A stretch of DNA of 64,000 bases, from the NCBI GenBank assembly GCA_964016885.1, contig CAXHJY010000669.1:1012-65011 (forward strand). The letters are read 5' to 3'. A program made the position numbers and the translations under genes. The notes under the pieces are model-generated. The model had not been told where the DNA came from. It worked only from the letters and a program-made list of their open reading frames with translations, and did not search any database. Source of the DNA: Eledone cirrhosa. Lineage: Eukaryota. Every line of letters begins with the position of its first letter. Position 1 is the first letter of the stretch. Positions 3,390 to 28,473 of the stretch are shown piece by piece.

Positions 3390-4180
3390 GATTATCAGAT
3401 GGATAGACAAACATTATGAGATGGATGGACAGACATTATGAGATGGATGGACAGACATTATGAGATGGATGGACAAACATTATGAGATGGATGGACAAAC
3501 ATTATGAGATGGATGGACAAACATTATGAGATGGATGGACAAACATTATCAGATGGATTGGACAAACATTATCAGATGGATTGGACAAACATTATCAGAT
3601 GGATTGGACAAACATTATCAGATGGATTGGACAAACATTATCAGATGGATTGGACAAACATTATCAGATGGATTGGACAAACATTATCAGATGGATTGGA
3701 CAAACATTATCAGATGGATTAGACAAACATTATCAGATGGATTGGACAAACATTATCAGATGGATTGGACAAACATTATCAGATGGATGGACAAACATTA
3801 TCAGATGGATTGGACAAACATTATAAGATGGATCGACAAACATTATCAGATGGATCGACAAACATTATCAGATGGATTGGACAAACATTATCAGATGGAT
3901 TGGACAAACATTATCAGATGGATTGGACAAACATTATCAGATGGATGGACAAACATTATCAGATGGATTGGACAAACATTATAAGATGGATCGACAAACA
4001 TTATCAGATGGATTGGACAAACATTATCAGATGGATGGACAAACATTATCAGATGGATTGGACAAACATTATCAGATGGATTGGACAAACATTATCAGAT
4101 GGATTGGACAAACATTATCAGATGGATTGGACAAACATTATCAGATGGATTGGACAAACATTATCAGATGGATGAACAAA
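3390..4180. repeat. 22/23-bp minisatellite (GGACAAACATTATCAGATGGAT[T])
   Basis: Roughly 35 tandem units, with a 22-bp variant in the first copies and mostly 23 bp later. This explains the repetitive ORFs at 3504-4195. Confidence 0.98.
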
Positions 4181-4216
4181 ATAAAATGGGCTTAAATAAG
4201 TTATGTTATGGGAAGA

Positions 4217-7152: not shown

Positions 7153-9672
7153 TGCTTGGAAAGCATGGCGGGATGGGGGAAGTAGAGAAGACTATCAAGT
7201 GGCCAGGAGGGAAGCTAGGAGACAAGTGTACTTCGCAAGAAGGGAAGCAGAGGAAAGAAAGTTCAAGCATGTTCTACAACGTGAGGACCAAAAACGTGAG
7301 GTGTTCAGGATTGCCAGGCAATGTGTCAAGGAAAACCGTGATATTGTCGGGGTGAAGTGTGTACTTAACGATGATGGCATACTTGCCATCACCGACGCTG
7401 ATAAGAAGGTAGCTTGGAAGTGTCACTACGAAAGGCTTCTAAATGAGGAGAACAAATGGGAGAAAGACAGTCTCCCCCACATCGACCCAATAGAGGGACC
7501 AGCAGTGTTAGTCCAGGGTAGTACAATAAGCAAGGCAATCAAAGATATGAAGATGGGTAAGGCGGCTGGTCCTTCGGAAATAGTTGCTGAGATGATGAAG
7601 GCATCTGGTTCGGTGGGACACACCATGGTCACCTGGATAGTTAACCAAGTCGTACAGAATGGGGTTGTTCCGAAGGACTGGCATAGCAGCATCATCGTTA
7701 ACTGCTATAAGGGCAAAGGAGATGCCCCTAGATAGGAGTAACTATAGAGGCATTAAATTAATCGACCAGGTCATGAAGGTCACGGAAAAAGTAATAGCGC
7801 AACTAATCAGAGAGCGAATTGATCTAGATGAAATGCAGTTCGGATTTGTGTCAGGCAAAAGTACCACAGACGCTCTTTTCATCGTACGACAACTACAGGA
7901 GAAGTACCTACCTAAAAGTAAACCCCTATACTTAGCTTTTGTCGACTTGGAGAAAGCCTTCGACAGAGTCCCCCGTTCCATTATCTGGTGGTCTCTTAGA
8001 AAACTAGGTGTTGACGAATGGCTTGTGAGAGCTATACAAGCCATGTATAAAGAAACAGTCAGTAAGGTTAGAATTAACAACGAATATAGTGAAGAGTTTA
8101 GCGTAAAAGTTGGTGTCCATCAGGGCTCTGTTCTTAGCCCCCTACTATTTATTATTGCCCTTCAGGCTATAACAGAGGAGTTCAAGACCGGCTGCCCATG
8201 GGAACTCCTATACGCAGATGATCTAACGCTCATAGCTGAATCAATGACCGAATTAGAGAAGAAATTCCAAACATGGAAGCACGGCCTAGAATCAAAAGGC
8301 TTTAAAATTAACCTGGCTAAGACTAAAGTTCTAGTTTGTAGGAAAGAAAATAAGGCGGCAGTCCCATCTGGGAAATGACCATGCTCAGTGTGTAGGAAAG
8401 GCGTAGGTAGAAACTTCATTTTATGTCCCAAATGCAAAGTATGGGTGCATAAAAGATGTAGTGGGATCACAGGTAAGCTAACTAAGAACATAGATTTTAC
8501 ATGTGGCCGGTGCTCTGGTGCAATAAGTAGCAGCAAGTGCCCACAAAATACTAGCTCCTTCAACTGCGCAGAGGGTTCTATAGAAATAGTGGACAGCTTC
8601 TGTTACCTGGGTGACAAAATCAGCAGTGGGGGAGGGTGCTCTGAAAGTACAGTAGCTAGAGTCAGAACTGGATGGAAAAAGTTCAGAGAGCTTATACCAC
8701 TATTAGCCGCTAGAGGGTTCTCCCTAAAAATGAAAGGCAGGTTATACGATGCCTGCATACGAACAGCAATGCTGCATGGCAGTGAGACCTGGGCATTGTG
8801 TGCAGAGGATATACGCAGACTAGAGAGGAACGAAGCTTGCATGCTCCGCTGGATGTGCAATAGTAATATACGTGAACGGCAAAGCATAAACGAACTAAGA
8901 AAAAAAAATTAGAAATAAGAGGGATCAGATGTTGTTTACTCGAGAGAAGGCTACGTTGGTACGGTCACGTGATGCGCATGAAAGACGACAGCTGTATAAC
9001 AAAGTGCAGGGCAATAAAGATAGACGGTAGCCACGGAGTAGGCAGACCCATAAAAACATGGGACGAGCTGATAAATTCCGACCTCACACGCTTACACCTC
9101 TCCAAGACAATGTCACTGGACCGAGACCTTTGGCGGTACTCAGTAATAGAGAAGACCCGCCTTACCTAAATACAAAGTAAAAACCTACTACAGTCAGTAG
9201 GCATCTCTATCACCCCCCCCCGTCCCGTCCCACCACCTCCACCCCATCCACACCGCCCTTTCAATGTAAAGTTATGTTGGTCCCACAACATCCAGGCCGA
9301 AACAAATGAGATCGTGTAGGTGTCACGACAAAAAAACACACAGTCCACGCTGTAAATGTGGCCGTGTAGGCAACACGGTAAAAACCTCCCAGCCCCACAC
9401 TGTAAATGTGGTTGGTGTTAGGAAGGGCATCCAGCTGTAGAAAACCCGCCAGACAGTCCACGCTGTAATGTGGCCGTGTAGGCAACACGGTAAAAACCTC
9501 CCAGCCCCACACTGTAAATGTGGTTGGTGTTAGGAAGGGCATCCAACTGTAGAAAACCCGCCAGACAGTCCTATGCGAGCAAGACAACCACTCTTGCCTC
9601 AAGTGGGAAAACCCCCGTCCAAACCCATGCAAGCGTGGAACACGGACGCTAAACCTGATGATGATGATGATG
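7153..9672 (+). mobile_element. 5'-truncated RTE-clade LINE, disabled
   Basis: ORF pieces 7199-7735, 7659-8378, 8388-8912 and 8969-9169 give RT motifs (GKAAGP, NYRGIKL, QFGF, FVDLEKAFDRVPR, GVHQGSVLSPLLF, LLYADD), a Cys/His finger, FCYLGD and LRWYGHV. Frameshift at about 7725, TGA at 8376-8378, A-run frameshift at about 8900. The 3' UTR ends in a (GAT)n tail. Confidence 0.95.
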
Positions 9673-10806
9673 ATATATATATATAGGCATACATACACAT
9701 ATATTATATAGGATATAAGATGTTCATTACTTCTACCACTTCTTAAACCTAAAATGTATTTTAGAATTAAGCTTTAAACACACTTTCATATATGGAAATA
9801 CATTTATTAAATAGTGAATATGAAAGTTTCTTTGCTATGTCTCAATTGTTATTATTTAAATGGTATACCAACCAATCTTATAAATCTATAAATATTTATA
9901 AACTAATGAACTCAAATCCTGTTCCCAATTTTAGTAATCTTGGTCAGATTCAAGATACATCTTTTTAATATGAAGAGCTTGCTAACACCCACCCCACTGC
10001 TCTTTAATTACTTCCAGCTTGTCTCTTTTCACATTCATATCTTCTCAGAACGGATAATAATTGAAAGTGTATGTATTTTCTTTTATTTCTTTTATCTATT
10101 TTCTTCTATTCATTTATATATTATTTGTGCACATTTGCATAAACCTTCTGAAATGACATTTTCAATTATGGAATAGCCTGGAGACAGCATGAGTAGTTGT
10201 GTTTCTCACCAAACTTGCATATAAAATAAACTAACTGCTCGATTATAACCAGCTGTGAATGGTTTATATATTGGTAAAGATCAATAGTTTGTATGCATAT
10301 TTCAAGCTAGAAATTTGGAAGTATGCAAAAATATTTATTAAGCATCATTAACATCATCATCATCATCATTTAACGTTCATTTTTCCAGGCTTGCATGAAT
10401 AGAAAAGGTCTTATCCAATTCAACATCTCAACACTTGTTGCTGTATTTTGTCATCTTGTGTACAATATTCAGCTTCTAGAGTTCAACTTTCAACACCCTT
10501 TCCCATGTTTTCCTCAGTTCCTTCTACTTGGATCACTTGGCATTTCTTTCAATACCATATTTTTAATAAAAGACATTGTTTATTATTTTCAAAATTATTT
10601 GAAAATAATCAAGAATTTATAGGGTTTTAATAAAATAGCTAATTTTCTCATTATTATATTTGTGTGTGGTACATAATTTAATATAGGTTCTTACATCGAA
10701 TTAGGATGTGTTTTTTTAGGTAAATATAAACGCTTTAAAATAAAATTTTATATCATAGAACCAGAGGCAGTTTAGATGTTTTGGTGTCATTATGTATGAG
10801 GCTTAA

Positions 10807-11599: not shown

Positions 11600-11770
11600 T
11601 GATCATTATCATCATTTTATGTCTATTTTCCATGCCTGCATGCATTAGATGGGCTGGGTTGCCATGTTCTGAGGCTAGACACACAGGTCAGAAGACAGTC
11701 TTGCTCATACATTCCATTTTGGCATGATTTCTATGGTTGGATGCTCTTCCTAATGCCAACCACTTCATGA
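11600..11770 (-). mobile_element. Old RTE-tail fragment or RTE-tailed SINE
   Basis: Reverse complement has GTGGTTGGCATTAGGAAGAGCATCCAACC...GCATGGAAAATAGACATAAAATGATGAT, as in the RTE 3' UTR. Related pieces at about 10350-10400 (-), 18420-18482 (+), 23200-23470 (+), 29610-29660 (+) and 32135-32520 (-). Confidence 0.75.
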
Positions 11771-11797
11771 CCTATACAAGATTGATATTTGTATATA

Positions 11798-14700
11798 TCA
11801 TCATCATCATCATCAACGTTTAACGTCCGTGTTCCACGCTTGCATGGGTTTGGACGGGGGTATTCCCACTTGAGGCAAGAGTGATTGTCTTGCTCGCATA
11901 GGACTGTCTGGCAGGTTTTCTGCAGTTGGATGCCCTTCCTAACACCAACCACATTTACAGTGTGGGGCTGGGAGGTTTTTACCGTGTTGCCTACACGGCC
12001 ACATTACAGTGTGAACTGTGTGTTTTTTTGTCGTGACACCTACACGATCTCATTTGTTTCGGCCTGGATGTTGTGGCACCAACATAACTTTACATAGGAG
12101 GGGGTGGTGTGGAAGGGGTGTGGGTGGTGGGACGGGGGTGTATTTTGTTAGAGATGCCTACTGGCTGTAGTAGGTTTTACTATGTATTTAGGTAAGGCGG
12201 GTCTTCTCTATTACTGAGTACCGCCAAAGGTCTCGGTCCAGTGACATTGTCTTGGTGAGGTGTAAGTGTGTGAGGTCGGAGTTTATCAGCTCATCCCAGG
12301 TTTTTCTGGGTCTGCCTATTCCGTGGCTATCGTCTATCTTTATTGCCCTGCACTTTGTTATACAGCTATTGTCCTTCATGTGCATTATGTGACCATACCA
12401 ACGTAGCCTTCTCTCGAGTAGACAACATCTGATCTCTCTTATTTCTAATTTTTCCCTTAGTTCGTTTATGCTTTGTCGTTCACGTATATTACTATTACAC
12501 ATCCAGCGGAGCATGCAAGCTTCGTTTCTCTCTAGTCTGCGTATATCTTCTGCACACAATGCCCAGGTGTCACTGCCATGCAACATTGCTGTTCGTATGC
12601 AGGCATCGTACAACCTGCCTTTCATTTTTAGGGAGAACCCTTTAGCGGCTAATAGTGGTATAAGCTCTCTGAACTTTTTCCACCCAGTTCTGACTCTAGC
12701 TACTGTACTTTCAGAGCACCCTCCCCCACTGCTGATTTTGTCACCCAGGTAACGGAAGCTGTCCACTATTTCTATAGAACCCTCTGCGCAGCTGAAAGAG
12801 CTAGTATTTGTGGGCACTTGCTGCTACTTATTGCGCCGGAACACCGGCCACATGTAAAATCTATGTTCTTAGTTAGCTTACCTGTGATACCACTACATCT
12901 TGCATTTGGGACACTCAAACTTTGCATTTGGGACACAAAATGGAGTTTCTACCTACGCCTTTCCTACACTCTGCGCATGGCCACTTCCCGGAGGGGACCG
13001 CCGCCTTATTTTCTTTCTTACAAACTATAACTTTAGTCTTAGCCAGGTTAATTTTAAGGCCTTTTGATTCTAGGCCGTGCTTCCATGTTTGGAATTTCTT
13101 CTCTAGCTCGGCCATTGATTCAGCTATGAGCGTTAGATCATCTGCGTATAGGAGTTCCCATGGGCAGCCGGTCTTGAACTCCACTGTTATAGCCTGGAGG
13201 GCAATAATAAATAGTAGGGGGCTAAGAACAGATCCCCGATGAACACCAACTTTTACACTAAACTCTTCACTATATTCGTTGTTAATTCTAACCTTGCTGA
13301 CTGTTTCTTTATACATGGCTTGTATAGCTCTCACAAGCCATTCATCAACACCTAGTTTTCTAAGAGCCCACCAGATAATGGAACGGGGGACTCTGTCGAA
13401 GGCCTTCTCCAAGTCGACGAAAGCTAAGTATAGGGGTTTACTTTTAGCTAGGTACTTCTCCTGTAGTTGTCGTACAATGAAAAGAGCGTCTGTGGTACTT
13501 TTTCCTGACACAAACCCGAACTGCATTTCATCTAGATCAATTCGCTCTCTGATTAGTTGCACTATTACTTTTTCCGTGACCTTCATGACCTGGTCGATTA
13601 ATTTAATGCCTCTATAGTTACTCCTATCTAGGGCATCTCCTTTACCCTTATAACAGTTAACGATGATGCTGCTACGCCAGTCCTCCGGAACAACCCCATT
13701 CTGTATGACTTGGTTGACTATCCAGGTGACCATGGTGTGTCCCACCGTACCAGATGCCTTCAGCATCTCGGCAACTATTTCCGAAGGCCCAGCCGCCTTG
13801 CCTGTCTTCATATCTTTGATTGCCTTACTTATTATACTACCCTCGACTAACACTGCTGGTCCCTCTATTGGGTCGATGTGGGGGAGACTGTCTTTCTCCC
13901 ATTTATTCTCCTCATTTAGTAGCCTTTCATAGTGACACTTCCAAGCTACCTTCTTATCAGCGTCGGTGATGGCAAGTACGCCGTCATCATTAAGTACACA
14001 CTTCTCCCCGACAATATCACTGTTCTCCTTGACACATTGCCTAGCAATCCTGAAAACCTCACGTTTTTGGTCCTCACGTTGTAGAACATGCTTGAACTTT
14101 CTTTCCTCTGCTTCCCTTCTTGCGAAGTACACTTGTCTCCTAGCTTCCCTCCTGGCCACTTGATAGTCTTCTCTGCTTCCCCCATCCCGCCATACTTTCC
14201 AAGCCTGCTTTTTGGCCTTAATTGACCCCTCCACCTTACTGTTCCACCACCATGTTACTCTCCTCCTGCCTACAGGCCTGCTCCAGCCACAGACTTCGTC
14301 TGTCGCCGTCAGCAGGTTTGCTTTCAGGAATTCCCACTGTTCCTCTACCTTGTACGACTCTAATTGCTCTTCCTTACTGTCGAAAGCATCAAGTAATATG
14401 CTTTGGAATTTATTTTTGGCTGTGGGGTCCTTTAGCTTCCATATTTTTCTCCTGAGGATAGTCCTCTTCTGTTGTCTAGTACGTCTCATCCTGATTATTA
14501 GGTCGCTAATTATCAGTCTGTGTTGGGAGGTGCATTCTTCATGGGGGAGGGATTTAGTGTTTACAACAGTCACTTTGTAACGTCTTCTGGTAAGGATATA
14601 ATCTACCTGGCTGGTATGTTCCCCTGATCTGTAGGTGATCAAGTGATTGTCTCGTTTTTTGAAGTTAGTGTTGCAGATAGTTAGGTTATTTGCGTCACAG

Positions 14701-15203
14701 AATTCCAGGATTCTGGAGCCTTCCTCATTTCTAGTACCAAACCCATAGCCTCCATGGATTTCGTCGTATCCGTCACAATGTTGTCCAACGTGACCGTTTA
14801 GGTCGCCTGCAATAATTATATAGTCACTGTCGGTTATTTGGGAGGTAGTGAGCATCAGTGTCTCATAGAATCTGTCTTTTATAGTGCTGGGCAGTCCGGA
14901 TTTGGGTGCGTATGCGGATATTACTGTCACCGTGGTTCTATTGAGGACAAGTCTTATTTTAATTATTCTGTCGTTCACTCTATTTACGTCTATTATCTTA
15001 TCTGCCCACTTTTCTGCTACCATGATTCCTACCCCACCCAGCCCATTGTCATTGTCATTTCCCACCCAGAAAAGCTTATAGCATCGTTTTCTACCCACAA
15101 TGAATCTAGCAGATCCACCCCTCCACCTGGTCTCTTGAATACAACAAACATCGACCTCCTTACATTCAAGCATTTCTACAACCTCGTTAGAGCGACCCTT
15201 TAA
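11798..15203 (-). mobile_element. Nearly full-length RTE-clade LINE (APE endonuclease plus RT), disabled
   Basis: The 752-aa ORF 15173-12915 has APE motifs (CCIQETRW, GGVGI, SAYAP, GDLNGHVG, SQVDYIL, SQHRLII) and full RT motifs. The C-terminal part is 12817-12188. Stop and small rearrangement at about 12900-12936; (GAT)n tail at about 11798-11814; truncated inside the first APE motif. Same family as 7153-9672. Confidence 0.96.
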
Positions 15204-15313
15204 TATAAATATATATAAATGAAGTAATTCCGTCAGAAAGGTCCAGGAAAAAAGAGTGCTCTATGAAGGTTACAGAGCTTATTAGTTATGTAATAAACAA
15301 CATAAGATAATTA

Positions 15314-15373
15314 TTTCATTTACCAGTGGTTTCTTGAAAGCAAACAAATTTGCTTTCAGTCATCAGAATGAAA
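15314..15373 (-). ncRNA. Type-I hammerhead ribozyme motif (left arm of foldback 2)
   Basis: Reverse complement is identical to 15521-15580. Confidence 0.8.
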
Positions 15374-15520
15374 AAATCCTGGTGTTTTTATTGAATGTGG
15401 ATTTGAAAAACCTTTATGTCTATTTTCCATACCTGCATGCATTAGATAGTATGGGTGGGTTGCCATGTTCTGAGGCTAGACACACAGGCCAGAAGACATT
15501 CAACAAAAACACCAGGATTT

Positions 15521-15580
15521 TTTCATTCTGATGACTGAAAGCAAATTTGTTTGCTTTCAAGAAACCACTGGTAAATGAAA
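15521..15580 (+). ncRNA. Type-I hammerhead ribozyme motif (right arm of foldback 2)
   Basis: Stem I TTTCATT/AATGAAA (7 bp); CTGATGA (15528-15534); stem II TGAAAGCAAA/TTTGCTTTCA (10 bp, with a C.A mismatch at the core-closing position); GAAA (15561-15564); stem III CC-ACT-GG; GUA cleavage triplet ending at 15573. Confidence 0.82.
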
Positions 15581-15619
15581 TAATTACCATATGTTGTTTA
15601 TTACATAACTATATATATA

Positions 15620-16185
15620 TTTAAAGGTTAAACGAGGTTCAATGAATAAATCACCTCCTTGTGTTTTAGACTATAAAACTTATTCTTTTTCTCCTCTTCT
15701 CTCTATCCTTAATCAATTTTCTTTTGCTTTCGTGCATAAGATAATTCTATATTTCTTGTCATTCTCTCTTTCCTCATCTGTTTCTCTCTCTGTCTTTCAC
15801 GTCCTCTTTCTACAATAATGTGTAATCCATATATTACTTTATTTAAATTATTTAAATTTCTAACAGTTATGTAGGTTTATATTATATTAGTAGTTGTTTA
15901 TTATTATGTATCCTTATAAGCTTTCTCACACGCACCCTCTGTATTATATGTAATTTTTTCATGTCTCAATCTTAAGGTATATAAATATTGTGTTTTGTCC
16001 TAACTTATTCACTGCCATAACTGAATTTTAACCATCAACATAGTCAAGGTATGTCAAGCATCAACTTATTTTATCTGATGAGGACGTACTGGTGAAAATA
16101 GCTCAGTACCTCTGAAATGTGTATAATAAAATATACTTGATCAAACGAATGTCTATATTTGTTAATATTTTGAATTAATATATAT
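15620..16185 (+). mobile_element. Solo PLE 3' end/pLTR remnant between (TA)n tracts
   Basis: Pyrimidine/AT-rich UTR-like segment ending in a hammerhead with overlapping AATAAA, then (TA)n. Same layout as the PLE end at 1280-1590. No recognisable ORF. Confidence 0.55.
16067..16133 (+). ncRNA. Type-I hammerhead ribozyme motif
   Basis: Stem I TATTTTAT/ATAAAATA (8 bp); CTGATGA (16075-16081); stem II GGA-C-GTACTG/CAGTAC-C-TCT; GAAA (16114-16117); stem III ATGTGTAT (self-complementary with GU pairs); cleavage after UA at 16125. Confidence 0.8.
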
Positions 16186-24535: not shown

Positions 24536-25316
24536 ATGAATGCGCCACATTTGCCCGCCTTTACCGGAAAACCTAAGCTGTGGTTTGCCGAGTTACAGGC
24601 GTATTTTACGGTCTGTAAGACCGAGTCTGACCAACGTCTCGCTGTCTTGATTAGCGGACTTCCCCCTAATCTAGCAGATTCGGTCCAAGATCTAATTACA
24701 GACCCCCCCCCCCTCTGACTTAATGTATGAGTCTTTGAAAGGCGAGATTTTGAGAAGGAACTGTAAGTCGGTAGAGAGTCGTTTTCGGTCATTCATCGAG
24801 GACGAACGATTAGGTGACAGGACCCCTACCGCTTTTCTCCGGCATTTGCGGGATTTGAGCGATTCCCAAGATCAGGATAGTCCTTTCCTGAAGCAATTGT
24901 TCTTCTCTCGCCTACCTCAAGAGGTACAGGCGATCCTAGCCCATATGCTAGAGGTAAATACCCTCAACCACATTGCTGTCTCTGCTGACAAAATTGTAGA
25001 GGTGACGAAGAGAGACACTTCAAAGCCAAAGTACGTTGCTTCTTCTTCTCTTCCTCAATCACGCTCATCAGCGAGTGATGAGAAATTAGTCACCACAATG
25101 GAAGCCATGACTCGTCAAATGGCGGAGTTGTGCCAGGAATTCAGGTCTTTTGGACGGCAGAGGAGCCGCTCACGAACTTATTCAACTCCTCGCTACCATA
25201 GCCCTTCCAAAACAACAAAACCACCATATTGTTATTACCATGACAAATATGGTGACAAAGCCGCCCGTTGTAGGCCTCCTTGTGCTTACATGGGAAACGA
25301 CGACCAAAGTCACTAA
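24536..25316 (+). pseudogene. gag: gag, frameshifted at a C-run near 24704-24714
   Basis: MNAPHLPAFTGKPKLWFAELQAYF...DLITDPP / YESLKGEIL..LGDRTPTAFLRHLR..LFFSRLP..CYYHDKYGDKAARCRPPC: typical gypsy gag with a variant Cys/His knuckle. Confidence 0.88.
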
Positions 25317-28300
25317 CGGCGGATAGTGCGCTCTGTGAAACATCATCCAACCGCCACTTTTTCATTGAGGACCTGCTATCAGGTAGAGCCTTTCTGGTGG
25401 ACACAGGTGCAGTTTGTTCAGTATGGCCTGTGTGTTGTATGAAGGAGACTCCCCCTGAGACACCTATTGAGTTGCAGGCAGTAAATTGTTTGCCGATTTG
25501 AACCTTCGGACAAATCTCGCTACCTTTGCAGTTCCGTAACCTGCGGCGTGAATTTAAATGGATATTTACTGTCGCTGCCTTGCCGTATCCGATCCTAGGC
25601 GCAGATTTTCTCCACCATTTTACATTGACGGTGGACCTCCGTCGTAAACGCCTAATTGACGGCATCACTGGTTTAACTGTTGTTGGCAAGGCAGCAGGAG
25701 TTCCAACGGTTAGCCTGACCTTTTTTCTTGCTAACACCGGTGATACTTACCATGCGTTGTTGAACTCGTTCCCGCAACTGACTCAGGGAAATTTTCGAGT
25801 TGATGAGCCAACTCATACCACGGAGCACTTCATAACTACAACTGGTGCTCCCGTTTTTTCTCGTCCTCGTCGCTTGCCTCCGGACAAACTCAAAGCAGCA
25901 CAATCAGAGTTTGATCATATGCTGCAGTTGGGGTTATTCGTCCGTCCACGAGCCCGTGGGTGTCCCCATTACACATGGTACCGAAAGCGACTGGCGATTG
26001 GAGACCTACTGGAGATTATCGACGCCTAAATTCGATAACGGAACCGGACCGTTATCCTATCCCTCATCTGCAAGACTTTGCGTCTTCGTTGCAGGGATGC
26101 AAGATATTCTCCAAACTGGATTTAATTCGTGCGTACCATCAAATTCCTGTCCATAAAAATGACATTCCAAAAACGGCTATAGTTATGCCATTTGGGTCAT
26201 TTGAGTTTTTGACCATGCCATTCGGATTAAGGAATGCCGCTAGTACGTTTCAGCGGTTTGTGGATGAGGTTACTCGTGGCCTCGATTTCGTCTATACCTA
26301 TATTGACGACCTGCTCATTGTTAGTTCTTCTCAAGAGCAACATACGCACCATTTGAATCTTCTTTTCCGCCGATTGAAGGCGTATAACATGCAGATTAAT
26401 GCACCCAAATGTGTTTTTGGTGCTGAGTCACTGACTTTCTCGGGTCACGTCATCGACGCTGACGGTATTCGACCCCGGCCTGAGCGAGTTAAGGTCATAG
26501 AGGATTTGCCTCCACCGACCTCACTATGTCAGTTACGCCAGTTCTTAGGCCTGATTAACTTTTATAGGCGTTTCGTGCCAAATTGTGCAAGATTGCTTTT
26601 CTCCCTGACAGAAATTTAAAAAAATTGTCGGAAGAAGAACAAAGACATTTCATTGACAGACACTCAACTTGCTGATTTTCAGCACGCCAAAACTGCTTTG
26701 GCTAATGCTTCGTTACCGACTCACCCGGTACCCGGTGCAAAGCTAACGCTTTGTGTTGATGCATCGGATATCGCTGTGGGCGCAGTGCTACAGCAAAACA
26801 TCAATGGTTACCAGCAACCGCTGGAGTTTTTTTCCAGAAAGCTGAAACCTGCTGAGACGCGCTACAGCACCTTTGGAAGAGAGCTTTTGGCCATCTATTT
26901 GGCCGTGAAACATTTTTCACATATGCTAGAGGGTAGACTGTTTGCTATCCTCACCAACCATAAACCATTGACTTTTGCGTTGAGAGCGAAGGCTGATAAA
27001 TACTCGCCCAGAGAGACGAGACACCTTGATTTCATCTCGCAATATACGAGTGATATCCAACACATTCCGGGTTCACTAAATACAGCGGCCGATGCTTTGT
27101 TCCGCTTACCCGTAACAGCGATCTCGTCACCCTCTGACATAGATCTGACTCGTTTGGCTGCGGATCATCCTCCCCTTGAGTCATTGGATGTTACATCGCC
27201 TGAGTTTGCAAATTGCGAGATGAAATACTTGCCTCTGTCGACTGCAGTTGGCCAAATTCTCTGCGACGTCTCTTTGGACGTGCCTATGCCCTTCGTTCCA
27301 GAGAATCATCGTCGGACCGTGTTTCTGGCATTACATGGTTTCTCGCATCCAGGATCTTCTGCCACAACAAAGCTCATATCAGCTAGATTTTTCTGGCCAA
27401 ATATGAGGCGTGAAATTGCTGCTTGGTGCCGTTCCCGTGTCGCTTGCCAGAAATCAAAGGTCCATCGACATGTCAAGGCTCCCCTGGGTACCTTTACTAA
27501 CCCAGATGCGCGTTTTTCGCACATTCATATTGATATAGTGGGACCTTGGCCTGTCAGCGATGGTTATTCTTATCTGCTGAACATAATTGACCGTTTTTCG
27601 AGATGGCCTGAAGCCATCCCCTTGAAAAACATCACCGCTGAGACAACAGCACATGCTCTTGTGTCTGGATGGATCTCTCGTTATGGAGTTCCATCCACAA
27701 TAACTACCGACCATGGACGACAGTTCGAGTCGAGCCTTTTCCTCGAACTGTCAAAATTAATTGGTGCTAAACGCATCAGAACTACGGCGTACCATCCCGC
27801 TTCGAATGGTATGGTAGAGCGTTTTCACCGACAACTGAAGGCCTCCTTAATGGCCTCAATGAACTCGGCGCATTGGAGCGAGTACCTCCCTATTGTGCTA
27901 CTAGGGATTCGGTCAGCGGTGAAGGTCGACTTTGGATTTTCACCGGCCGAAGTACTGTACGGTGCCCCACTGACGTTGCCCGGGCAAATGCTTGCCCCTA
28001 TCGATCTTGATGCCCAAGATCACGCTTCCTACATGTCCTGTTTGCGCTCCTATTTCCAGGATTTGCCGCCAATGGGCACTAGGAAACAAACTGTCAAGAC
28101 TGCTGTCCCGAGGGATGTTGCCTCGTGGATGCATGTCTTTGTAAGGAAAGATTCTGTGAAGTCCCCGCTCACACAGCCTTACACTGGACTTTACCGTGTC
28201 TTAGCGCGCTCGGCTAAGTATTTCACTTTAGATATTAAAGGGTCCAGGGAGACAGTTACAATAGACAGGCTTAAGCAGGCACACCTTGACACGGACGCTG

Positions 28301-28473
28301 TGGTTCCTGATCAACGAACCCCTTCGTATTTGCCTGTTGAGCGAACACCTGTTCCTGAACCACCATCATCGCCTGTCCCTACACCACCACCATCGCCACG
28401 TTATAAGACCACGACCCGTTCAGGTCGTAGGGTCCACTGGCCCAAAAGATTTTGCAACACCGTCTATATTTAG
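25292..28473 (+). pseudogene. pol: pol (protease, RT, RNase H, integrase) with stops and a frameshift
   Basis: [80 protein letters not shown]. Stops at 25499-25501 and 26617-26619; frameshift near 25935; RNase H TDH motif reads TNH. Confidence 0.95.

What the first reader, a model, noticed from the sequence alone, without database searches (positions are those of the whole stretch)
15283..15611. Mini foldback made of two mirror-image, outward-facing hammerhead ribozymes
Seen: 116-bp near-perfect inverted arms, each mostly a complete type-I hammerhead (7-bp stem I, CUGAUGA, 10-bp stem II, GAAA, short stem III, GUA), with no ORF. Known: PLE pLTRs carry minimal type-I hammerheads, PLEs can form inverted pLTR structures, and retrozymes carry hammerheads in direct tandem. 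Inference: this may be a non-autonomous 'inverted retrozyme'. A read-through transcript from either strand meets an antisense copy first and then a sense ribozyme, so the long hairpin should compete with self-cleavage and could also feed siRNA or ADAR pathways.
Basis: partly seen in the sequence, partly recalled or inferred. Interest (0 to 1): 0.75.

Follow-up and report, generated by a model that had tools for sequence, protein, structure and literature searches.

The report
Back-to-back Penelope stub, later RNA-edited
This hairpin is the very short, back-to-back stub of a known kind of jumping gene (a Penelope-like element) whose end carries a hammerhead self-cutting RNA motif, one of many such stubs in this genome; a related copy of one arm on another chromosome has clustered A-to-G changes, which likely record the hairpin RNA being edited by the cell and then copied back into DNA.

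Summary
The inverted arms and both hammerhead folds are real. They are not a self-standing 'inverted retrozyme'. They are the 3' ends of a Hydra-clade Penelope-like element (PLE), whose full-length form (pLTR-hammerhead-tail-RT/GIY-YIG ORF-pLTR) is in this genome. Such stubs are common: 30 of 85 sampled sites had an outward-facing partner, 29 of 30 pairing one tailed with one tail-less arm. In 14 of 42 such pairs neither arm can be a copy of the other, and truncated arms often start with an extra G at one fixed base. Likely mechanism: two cDNAs primed on opposite target strands, run to the capped RNA end and joined head to head. A 3.6-kb copy on another contig (left arm plus the adjacent RTE) has 7 of 7 arm substitutions A>G, likely ADAR editing of this hairpin. 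Opposite-strand hammerhead pairs, one-sided tails and edited retrocopies are all published, and this scan noted similar rules and edited copies on other DNA of this genome. Cleavage and expression are untested.

The parts
15218..15282 (-). 65-nt PLE 'tail' (family positions 133-197), present on the left arm only; in full-length elements it continues into the 5' leader and ORF start
15283..15412 (-). Left arm: 3' part of the pLTR (family positions 3-132), starting at the fixed 5' end with an extra G at 15412
15314..15373 (-). Type I hammerhead motif of the left arm; predicted cut after 15321
15413..15495 (-). 83-nt filler between the arms; 91% identical to 11616-11697, its best match found in the genome; likely locally templated
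15496..15611 (+). Right arm: family positions 17-132, ending at the tail-less pLTR end
15521..15580 (+). Type I hammerhead motif of the right arm; predicted cut after 15573
15204..15217 (.). (TA)n-type linker, left part of the target microsatellite
   Evidence: sequence
15612..15621 (.). (TA)n, right part of the target microsatellite
   Evidence: sequence
11786..15203 (-). 5'-truncated, broken non-LTR retrotransposon (APE endonuclease + RT; the RTE label is recalled, from its protein and (GAT)n tail). It was copied together with the left arm to G000:C7 (L103:3111-6688)
11616..11697 (-). Old repeat fragment about 90 nt beyond the RTE 3' end; likely template of the spacer

Best explanation
The foldback is a doubly 5'-truncated, inverted insertion of a Hydra-clade Penelope-like element in a (TA)n target, one arm ending at the pLTR end and the other 65 nt further at the tail end, likely made by two separate cDNAs primed on opposite strands of the cut target and joined head to head. 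Shown: family identity, parent ORF, the one-tail rule, the fixed 5' end with an extra G, the local match of the spacer, and the related copy with A>G changes. Inferred: the element's RT starts at two internal sites just 3' of the hammerhead; when it uses the copy of these sites near the RNA's capped 5' end, it runs off after about 130 or 195 nt; the two cDNA ends are joined by end-joining, here with a filler copied from nearby DNA. Later an RTE inserted in the TA beside the tail. A minus-strand read-through RNA likely folded into the roughly 116-bp duplex, was A-to-I edited in the arm, stayed uncut at the hammerhead site, and was retrotransposed by RTE machinery to contig C7. The hammerheads are passengers that would be trapped in the duplex, not working parts of a new element.
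For: Family: 8,190 exact matches to a 22-nt 3'-end motif and 734 to the hammerhead-core 22-mer, controls 0. Parent: of 20 fetched regions, L148, L149 and L162 read pLTR-hammerhead-tail, ORF, 3' UTR, pLTR-hammerhead, and L153 and L156 show the 5' half. The broken ORFs carry RWK, DKT, CxCX5C, CxxC and CxH, the Hydra features in PMC8557442 section 11. Architecture: 26 of 90 core-anchored loci have an outward-facing inverted partner within 1.5 kb, 1 an inward one, and 16 of 90 have two complete hammerheads. 30 of 85 distinct 3'-anchored sites (88 loci) have an outward partner within 500 bp: 29 tail+short, 1 short+short, 0 tail+tail (p 3e-8 against 0.5; 44 of 94 ends are tailed). In 14 of 42 tail/short pairs the short arm reaches more than 5 nt further 5', so neither arm is a copy of the other. 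5' end: where the template stops at the fixed G, the next base is G in 16 of 20 arms (10 of 13 after removing those a partner arm could explain; p 1e-4 against 0.25), versus T in 84 of 88 where the pLTR continues. An extra G marks cap copying in L1 insertions (PMC11702581 passage). A PLE protein nicks and extends both strands and starts at two internal sites that bound the tail (PMC11167929, parts 1-2 read). Related copy: L103:3111-6688 matches window 15377-11786 at 98% with different flanks and a 20-nt flanking repeat. The junction occurs at only these 2 places. The two share rare tail variants (4 and 11 of 157 tails) and 6 RTE variants that differ from the majority of 10 other copies. Arm substitutions: 7 of 7 A>G, 7 of 32 A against 10 of 1,161 A elsewhere (p 8e-8). 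It is the only arm of 269 with more than 2 A>G at conserved A, and no G-rich subfamily turned up.
Against: No RNA evidence: cleavage, start site, expression and editing are all inferred from DNA. The edited copy is a single event and rests on the assembly alone. Its confinement to the paired arm rather than the unpaired tail is weak (p 0.07 on the tail's 15 A). The ADAR neighbour preference is not evident in 7 sites (1 has G upstream). If the source RNA began at the left arm's own capped start (15411), it would lack the inverted arm, and pairing would have to be in trans. The spacer differs from its proposed template at 4-5 places in 86 nt, more than the arms differ from each other (3 in 116). 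One short+short pair and 7 unclassifiable pairs depart from the rule. Samples are position-ordered, come from contig C1 (plus 9 loci from C2), need an exact 22-mer, and so favour young copies. No intact parent ORF was seen among the 9 copies translated (output partly cut). Clade assignment is by motifs, not a tree.
Confidence: 0.8

Rival explanations
1. Non-autonomous 'inverted retrozyme': the two-hammerhead foldback is itself a mobile unit, transcribed and re-inserted as such.
For: The arrangement recurs (16 of 90 loci with two complete hammerheads). Seven pairs share the same junction geometry, both arms aligning from position 3. Non-autonomous PLE-derived retrozymes exist (bioRxiv 10.64898/2026.07.22.740005, abstract, introduction and part of methods read).
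Against: Arm lengths and junctions form a continuum from tail-only stubs to kilobase inverted copies. The shared junction geometry occurs in different sequence subfamilies, so it is convergent. This locus's spacer is not found with arms elsewhere. The only copy derived from this locus was carried with the RTE and lacks the second arm. Outward-facing hammerheads on opposite strands cannot excise a monomer from one RNA.
Confidence: 0.06
2. Self-priming fold-back: one cDNA folds on the near-palindromic 5' end and copies itself, giving the second arm (model of PMC3846280, passages read).
For: The fixed 5' end is an imperfect 14-nt palindrome (sequence). In 28 of 42 tail/short pairs the tailed arm reaches as far 5' as the short one or further, so the short arm could be its copy. 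The window's own pair is of this type.
Against: In 14 of 42 pairs neither arm contains the other, including tail-only partners with no overlap (L214, L274). A fold-back would have to stop exactly at position 132 each time. An 83-nt foreign filler sits at this junction.
Confidence: 0.12
3. The A>G cluster in the C7 copy is not editing of this hairpin, but an assembly error, gene conversion from a G-rich copy, or editing through trans pairing with antisense PLE RNA.
For: Single event. Arm-versus-tail confinement p 0.07 and no clear neighbour motif. One of the seven Gs is a common family variant (59 of 269 arms).
Against: All seven changes are A>G on the transcribed strand, with 0.5 substitutions expected in 95 nt (Poisson p 1e-6). 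The next-best genome match is 93%, the level of the unedited sequence. The other 3.5 kb shows an ordinary spectrum.
Confidence: 0.2

Closest known systems
Hydra clade of C-terminal EN+ Penelope-like elements (Craig et al. 2021, PMC8557442; passages and section 11 read)
   Same: RT followed by GIY-YIG; RWK, DKT, CxCX5C, CxxC and CxH motifs; hammerhead in the pLTR; (TA)n targets; inverted 5'-truncated copy; tail often at one end only.
   Different: Tail is 65 nt, not 30-40. The 3' non-coding region is long and microsatellite-rich (1.3 kb or more). This copy has lost the ORF entirely. The one-tail pattern is near absolute here (29 of 30).
Minimal type I hammerheads of metazoan PLEs (Cervera and de la Pena 2014, PMC4209133; abstract and Results read)
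   Same: Long helix II, small near-palindromic helix III, location in pLTRs. The paper already reports dual motifs about 100-700 bp apart on opposite strands in Schistosoma mansoni, with low in vitro activity and none as monomers.
   Different: Helix I is 7 bp. The base of helix II is a C.A (also U-A or A.A) opposition, not a single bulge. Activity is untested here.
Poseidon_Ac internal initiation (Frangieh et al. 2024, PMC11167929; parts 1-2 of 4 read)
   Same: Two fixed ends bounding a tail just 3' of the hammerhead; AT-rich targets; uncut RNA is copied.
   Different: Different clade. There the ORF starts inside the hammerhead; here it starts about 110-120 nt after the tail end. The parts read do not link the two start sites to the two arms of inverted insertions.
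Animal non-LTR retrozymes (PMC7229834, passages read; bioRxiv 10.64898/2026.07.22.740005)
   Same: Short, non-coding, type I hammerhead, PLE-related.
   Different: Retrozymes are head-to-tail tandem monomers of about 170-400 nt that give circular RNA. This is head-to-head, with variable junctions, and part of an ORF-bearing family.
ADAR-edited retrocopies made by L1 (PMC11702581, section 7 read)
   Same: Clustered editing-type substitutions confined to an inverted-repeat duplex in a retrotransposed RNA (3 of 235 pseudogene insertions there); also locally templated fillers and a cap-derived G.
   Different: There in cultured human cells with Alu duplexes; here a genomic copy in an animal assembly, with a PLE foldback as duplex and an RTE as carrier.

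Membership tests
EN+ Penelope-like element, Hydra clade | pLTR with hammerhead flanking a single RT + C-terminal GIY-YIG ORF | tested here: met
   Met for the family: L148, L149, L162. The window copy itself has no ORF. Pfam found no family for the RT/linker fragment; RT and GIY-YIG motifs were read by eye.
EN+ Penelope-like element, Hydra clade | RWK motif, DKT in place of DKG, CxCX5C linker, CxxC and CxH around the endonuclease end | tested here: met
   All seen in translations, compared with PMC8557442 section 11.
EN+ Penelope-like element, Hydra clade | Insertion in (TA)n; inverted 5'-truncated copy; one-sided tail | tested here: met
   tail is 65 nt against the published 30-40.
EN+ Penelope-like element, Hydra clade | Phylogenetic placement of the RT within Hydra | not tested
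   No reference PLE proteins were fetched; no tree was built.
Type I hammerhead ribozyme | Conserved core (CUGANGA, GAAA, UH) with three helices and covariation | tested here: met
   Core columns invariant except N7 in 10 hand-picked subfamily variants. 6 of 11 stem II pairs change on both sides; cells with double change 15 against 6.7 shuffled, 0 of 500; slid controls lower. The sequences are related, so this is not a probability.
Type I hammerhead ribozyme | Paired 10.1-11.1 at the base of helix II | tested here: not met
   C.A in 209 of 269 arms, U-A in 42, A.A in 14: a family trait, not decay of this copy.
Type I hammerhead ribozyme | Self-cleavage as monomer or dimer | not testable with these tools
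   Needs an assay. No clear excess of 5' breakpoints at the cut site (3 of 94 arms at 92-95).
Non-LTR retrozyme | Head-to-tail tandem monomers, each with a hammerhead | tested here: not met
   One full direct repeat among 90 loci; the other three direct hits are fragments. None among 88 loci within 500 bp.
Non-LTR retrozyme | Moves as a defined unit without an ORF-bearing parent of the same sequence | tested here: not met
   Variable junctions; parent with ORF present.
Non-LTR retrozyme | Expressed as linear and circular monomer RNA | not testable with these tools
   No RNA run was available.
ADAR-hyperedited retrocopy (L103) | Clustered, strand-specific A>G confined to a duplex-forming segment | tested here: met
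   the contrast with the adjacent tail alone is weak (p 0.07).
ADAR-hyperedited retrocopy (L103) | G depleted 5' of edited sites (PMC5625713, passages read) | tested here: inconclusive
   1 of 7 edited against 5 of 25 unedited A have G upstream.

The most novel reading that the evidence does not exclude
These stubs are a genome-scale record of how Penelope-like elements integrate: both target strands prime their own cDNA, one from each of two internal start sites, on an RNA whose capped, palindromic 5' end lies about 45 nt before the hammerhead core, and the two cDNAs join head to head. The by-product is on the order of two thousand hairpins in this genome (extrapolated from one contig). They trap their own ribozymes and feed ADAR, and at this locus an edited, uncut hairpin RNA was written back into the genome by an unrelated RTE.
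Probability: 0.55. Interest if true: 0.62.

Novelty: new member of a known kind. Interest (0 to 1): 0.45.

Why it matters
What adds value is that the family makes an open question testable. How PLE inverted repeats and one-sided tails arise is unresolved (PMC8557442 discussion). The near-absolute tail/no-tail pairing, non-nested arms and extra G predict a specific two-cDNA reaction that the existing in vitro system could check. The related copy with clustered A>G is DNA-level evidence that such a stub is transcribed and edited, and that edits can become heritable sequence.

Tried and rejected
Rfam at gathering threshold: 0 hits in the window. Pfam on the PLE RT/linker fragment: 0 families. Idea that arms begin preferentially at the ribozyme cut site: 3 of 94 arms break at positions 92-95 against 8 at 85-89, so not supported. 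Idea of family-wide A>G skew: 86 A>G at 30 conserved A against 80 T>C at 36 conserved T in 269 arms, with only one outlier (overlapping loci may count an arm twice). Idea that the RTE family carries a hammerhead at its 5' end: rejected, since 10 of 10 other close copies have ordinary RTE sequence upstream and the junction occurs twice only. Idea that the window copy derives from C7: rejected, since the window has the family A at all seven sites and 35 more family bases 5'. Assembly fold-back artefact: unlikely, since the arms differ at 3 sites, have different ends and a filler, and the pattern recurs. Sequencing runs: no RNA holder listed. Laying contigs on the C7 junction was uninformative: one search gave short repeat contigs, one 63-nt piece matching the tail-linker-RTE junction exactly; at 100% identity laid nothing on the A>G stretch, which the tool says can be false. 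Paper searches for an ADAR-edited retrocopy gave no direct precedent; one turned up in PMC11702581. A search for a two-cDNA PLE model listed two papers, of which PMC11167929 was read in part; searches cover open-access text only, so absence from print is not established. Supplements were not opened; those of PMC8557442 (Hydra consensus files) may already hold this family.

Full report
Observation. It folds far better than shuffles (z -28). Each arm contains a type I hammerhead motif that is the minimum-energy fold of the isolated 63-mer, with predicted cuts after 15573 (+) and 15321 (-). Rfam has no hit. Ten hand-picked subfamily variants keep the core invariant except N7 and show two-sided changes in 6 of 11 stem II pairs. 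The C.A at the base of stem II is the family norm (209 of 269 arms), with U-A in 42, so it is not decay of this copy. Positions below are those of a 197-nt reference unit, window 15414-15218 read on the minus strand.

What it is. The arm belongs to a high-copy repeat: 734 exact matches to the core 22-mer and 8,190 to a 3'-end 22-mer shared by subfamilies, with controls at 0. Copies sit in (TA)n and end either at position 132 or at 197. Longer copies lead upstream through a microsatellite-rich region into a GIY-YIG-type endonuclease end. Of 20 regions fetched around RT hits, L148, L149 and L162 show pLTR-hammerhead-tail, ORF, 3' region and a second pLTR-hammerhead; L153 and L156 show the 5' half; L152 has a large inverted copy. 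The ORFs are broken but carry RWK, DKT, CxCX5C, CxxC and CxH, the features given for the Hydra clade (PMC8557442 section 11). The window insertion therefore spans 15218-15611: tail, left arm (positions 3-132), 83-nt filler, right arm (17-132). The filler's best match found in the genome is 11616-11697 (91%; next best 80%; 20 of 20 candidates scored), about 90 nt beyond the 3' end of the neighbouring RTE. Without the RTE it would lie about 100 nt from the insertion site, which suggests local templating (inference; precedent in PMC11702581).

How common, and by what rule. In 90 position-ordered loci anchored on the core, 26 have an outward-facing inverted partner within 1.5 kb (24 with gaps of 32 nt or less), 1 an inward one, 16 have two complete hammerheads, and one has a full direct repeat. 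In 88 loci (85 distinct sites) anchored on the 3' end, 30 have an outward partner within 500 bp: 29 tail+short, 1 short+short, none tail+tail, plus one inward pair ('short' is the default for any end without a tail). Since 44 of 94 ends are tailed, chance would give about half (p 3e-8). Extrapolating from this part of contig C1 gives roughly 2,400 such stubs; this is a rough figure. Of 49 close pairs in the 178 loci, 42 are tail/short and 7 unclassified; in 14 of the 42 the short arm reaches more than 5 nt further 5', so neither arm is a copy of the other. Arms that stop at the G at position 4 are preceded by an extra G in 16 of 20 cases (10 of 13 after removing 7 that the partner could explain), against T in 84 of 88 copies where the pLTR continues (a looser count gave 18 G among 38 classifiable truncated arms, 16 of them T, mostly with template continuing).

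Mechanism. A purified PLE protein nicks and extends both strands of AT-rich DNA and starts at two internal RNA sites that bound the tail, using uncut RNA (PMC11167929). An extra G marks copying of the cap in L1 insertions (PMC11702581). I infer that each target strand primes its own cDNA, one from position 132 and one from 197. When the 5' copy of these sites is used, RT runs off the capped end after about 130 or 195 nt, and the two ends are joined, often through the near-palindromic 5' end and here through a filler. I put this at about 0.65. Self-priming fold-back (PMC3846280) fits this locus and 28 of 42 pairs but not the other 14. A unit-mobile inverted retrozyme is unlikely: junctions vary, the parent has an ORF, and tandem monomers are nearly absent.

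Fate of the hairpin. L103:3111-6688 on contig C7 matches window 15377-11786 (arm positions 38-197, linker, whole RTE) at 98% over 3,593 columns, with unrelated flanks and a 20-nt repeat on both sides within a microsatellite. The junction occurs at only these two places. The pair shares rare tail variants and six RTE variants, although the RTE family as a whole is also about 98% alike. The window has more family sequence 5' and the family base at each arm difference, so C7 is the derived copy. In the arm all 7 substitutions are A>G (7 of 32 A); in the other 3.5 kb 10 of 1,161 A changed to G among 47 substitutions (p 8e-8). It is the only one of 269 arms with more than 2 such changes at conserved A, and no similar copy exists among 40 scored candidates. 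The simplest reading is A-to-I editing of the foldback in a minus-strand read-through RNA that was uncut at the hammerhead site and retrotransposed by RTE machinery (about 0.8). Against: one event; no read-level confirmation; weak arm-versus-tail contrast (p 0.07); no neighbour motif; one of the Gs is a common variant. Being uncut is the norm for copied PLE RNA, so it does not prove that the hairpin blocks cleavage. One change hits the A after GAA in the core and would likely impair the motif (knowledge of the hammerhead core, recalled).

Comparison and novelty. Opposite-strand hammerhead pairs 100-700 bp apart in PLE remnants were reported in 2014 (PMC4209133), inverted 5' copies and one-sided tails in PMC8557442, and edited retrocopies in L1 experiments. 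Earlier notes of this scan on other DNA of this genome describe the two-end rule, an RNA start inside short hairpins, Hydra assignment and edited DNA copies; nothing was listed near this place or for this sequence. These notes were read after my own tests and are not independent support. Verdict: real feature, new member of a known kind, interest 0.45, carried by the clean end rule and the traceable edited copy.

Noticed in passing
window 16068-16132 (+), within about 15622-16180: A third hammerhead-like motif (CUGAUGA, long stem II, GAAA, 7-bp stem I) of a different repeat family directly right of the foldback, read by eye. A relative forms its own small inverted pair in L073. It lies about 550 nt downstream of the right-arm hammerhead in the same orientation.
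   Followed up: no
L064, L092, L111 (upstream flanks): A further family with a CUGAUGA motif also appears as short inverted pairs in (TA)n, so the stub architecture is not limited to one family.
   Followed up: no
window 7154-9710 (+): Second RTE copy, 94-96% identical and inverted relative to 11786-15203; a read-through RNA could form a 2.5-kb duplex. Five A>G differences between window and C7 cluster at 12435-12330, not polarised.
   Followed up: partly
window 24696-28473 (+): Broken ORFs resembling a Ty3/Gypsy-type LTR retrotransposon (gag, RT, RNase H, integrase), judged by eye from translations; label recalled.
   Followed up: no
window 39190-63997: 23-bp satellite, 1,082 copies, 94% matches.
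   Followed up: no
window about 3500-4195: Short-period minisatellite evident from repeating translations.
   Followed up: no
L012, L040, L050 and others, about 30 nt upstream of family position 4: A pyrimidine tract ending in CAG, like a 3' splice site, followed by an initiator-like motif in the pLTR; no spliced copies were noticed.
   Followed up: partly
G000:C1, pairs L177/L178, L189/L190, L234/L235, L252/L253, L256/L257, L179/L180: Outward-facing pairs 3-20 kb apart also follow tail+short in 5 of 6 cases; L179/L180 (20 kb) is tail+tail.
   Followed up: partly
L109:1-2682 (-): An uninterrupted 894-aa frame whose start resembles the PLE ORF start, apparently of another family.
   Followed up: no
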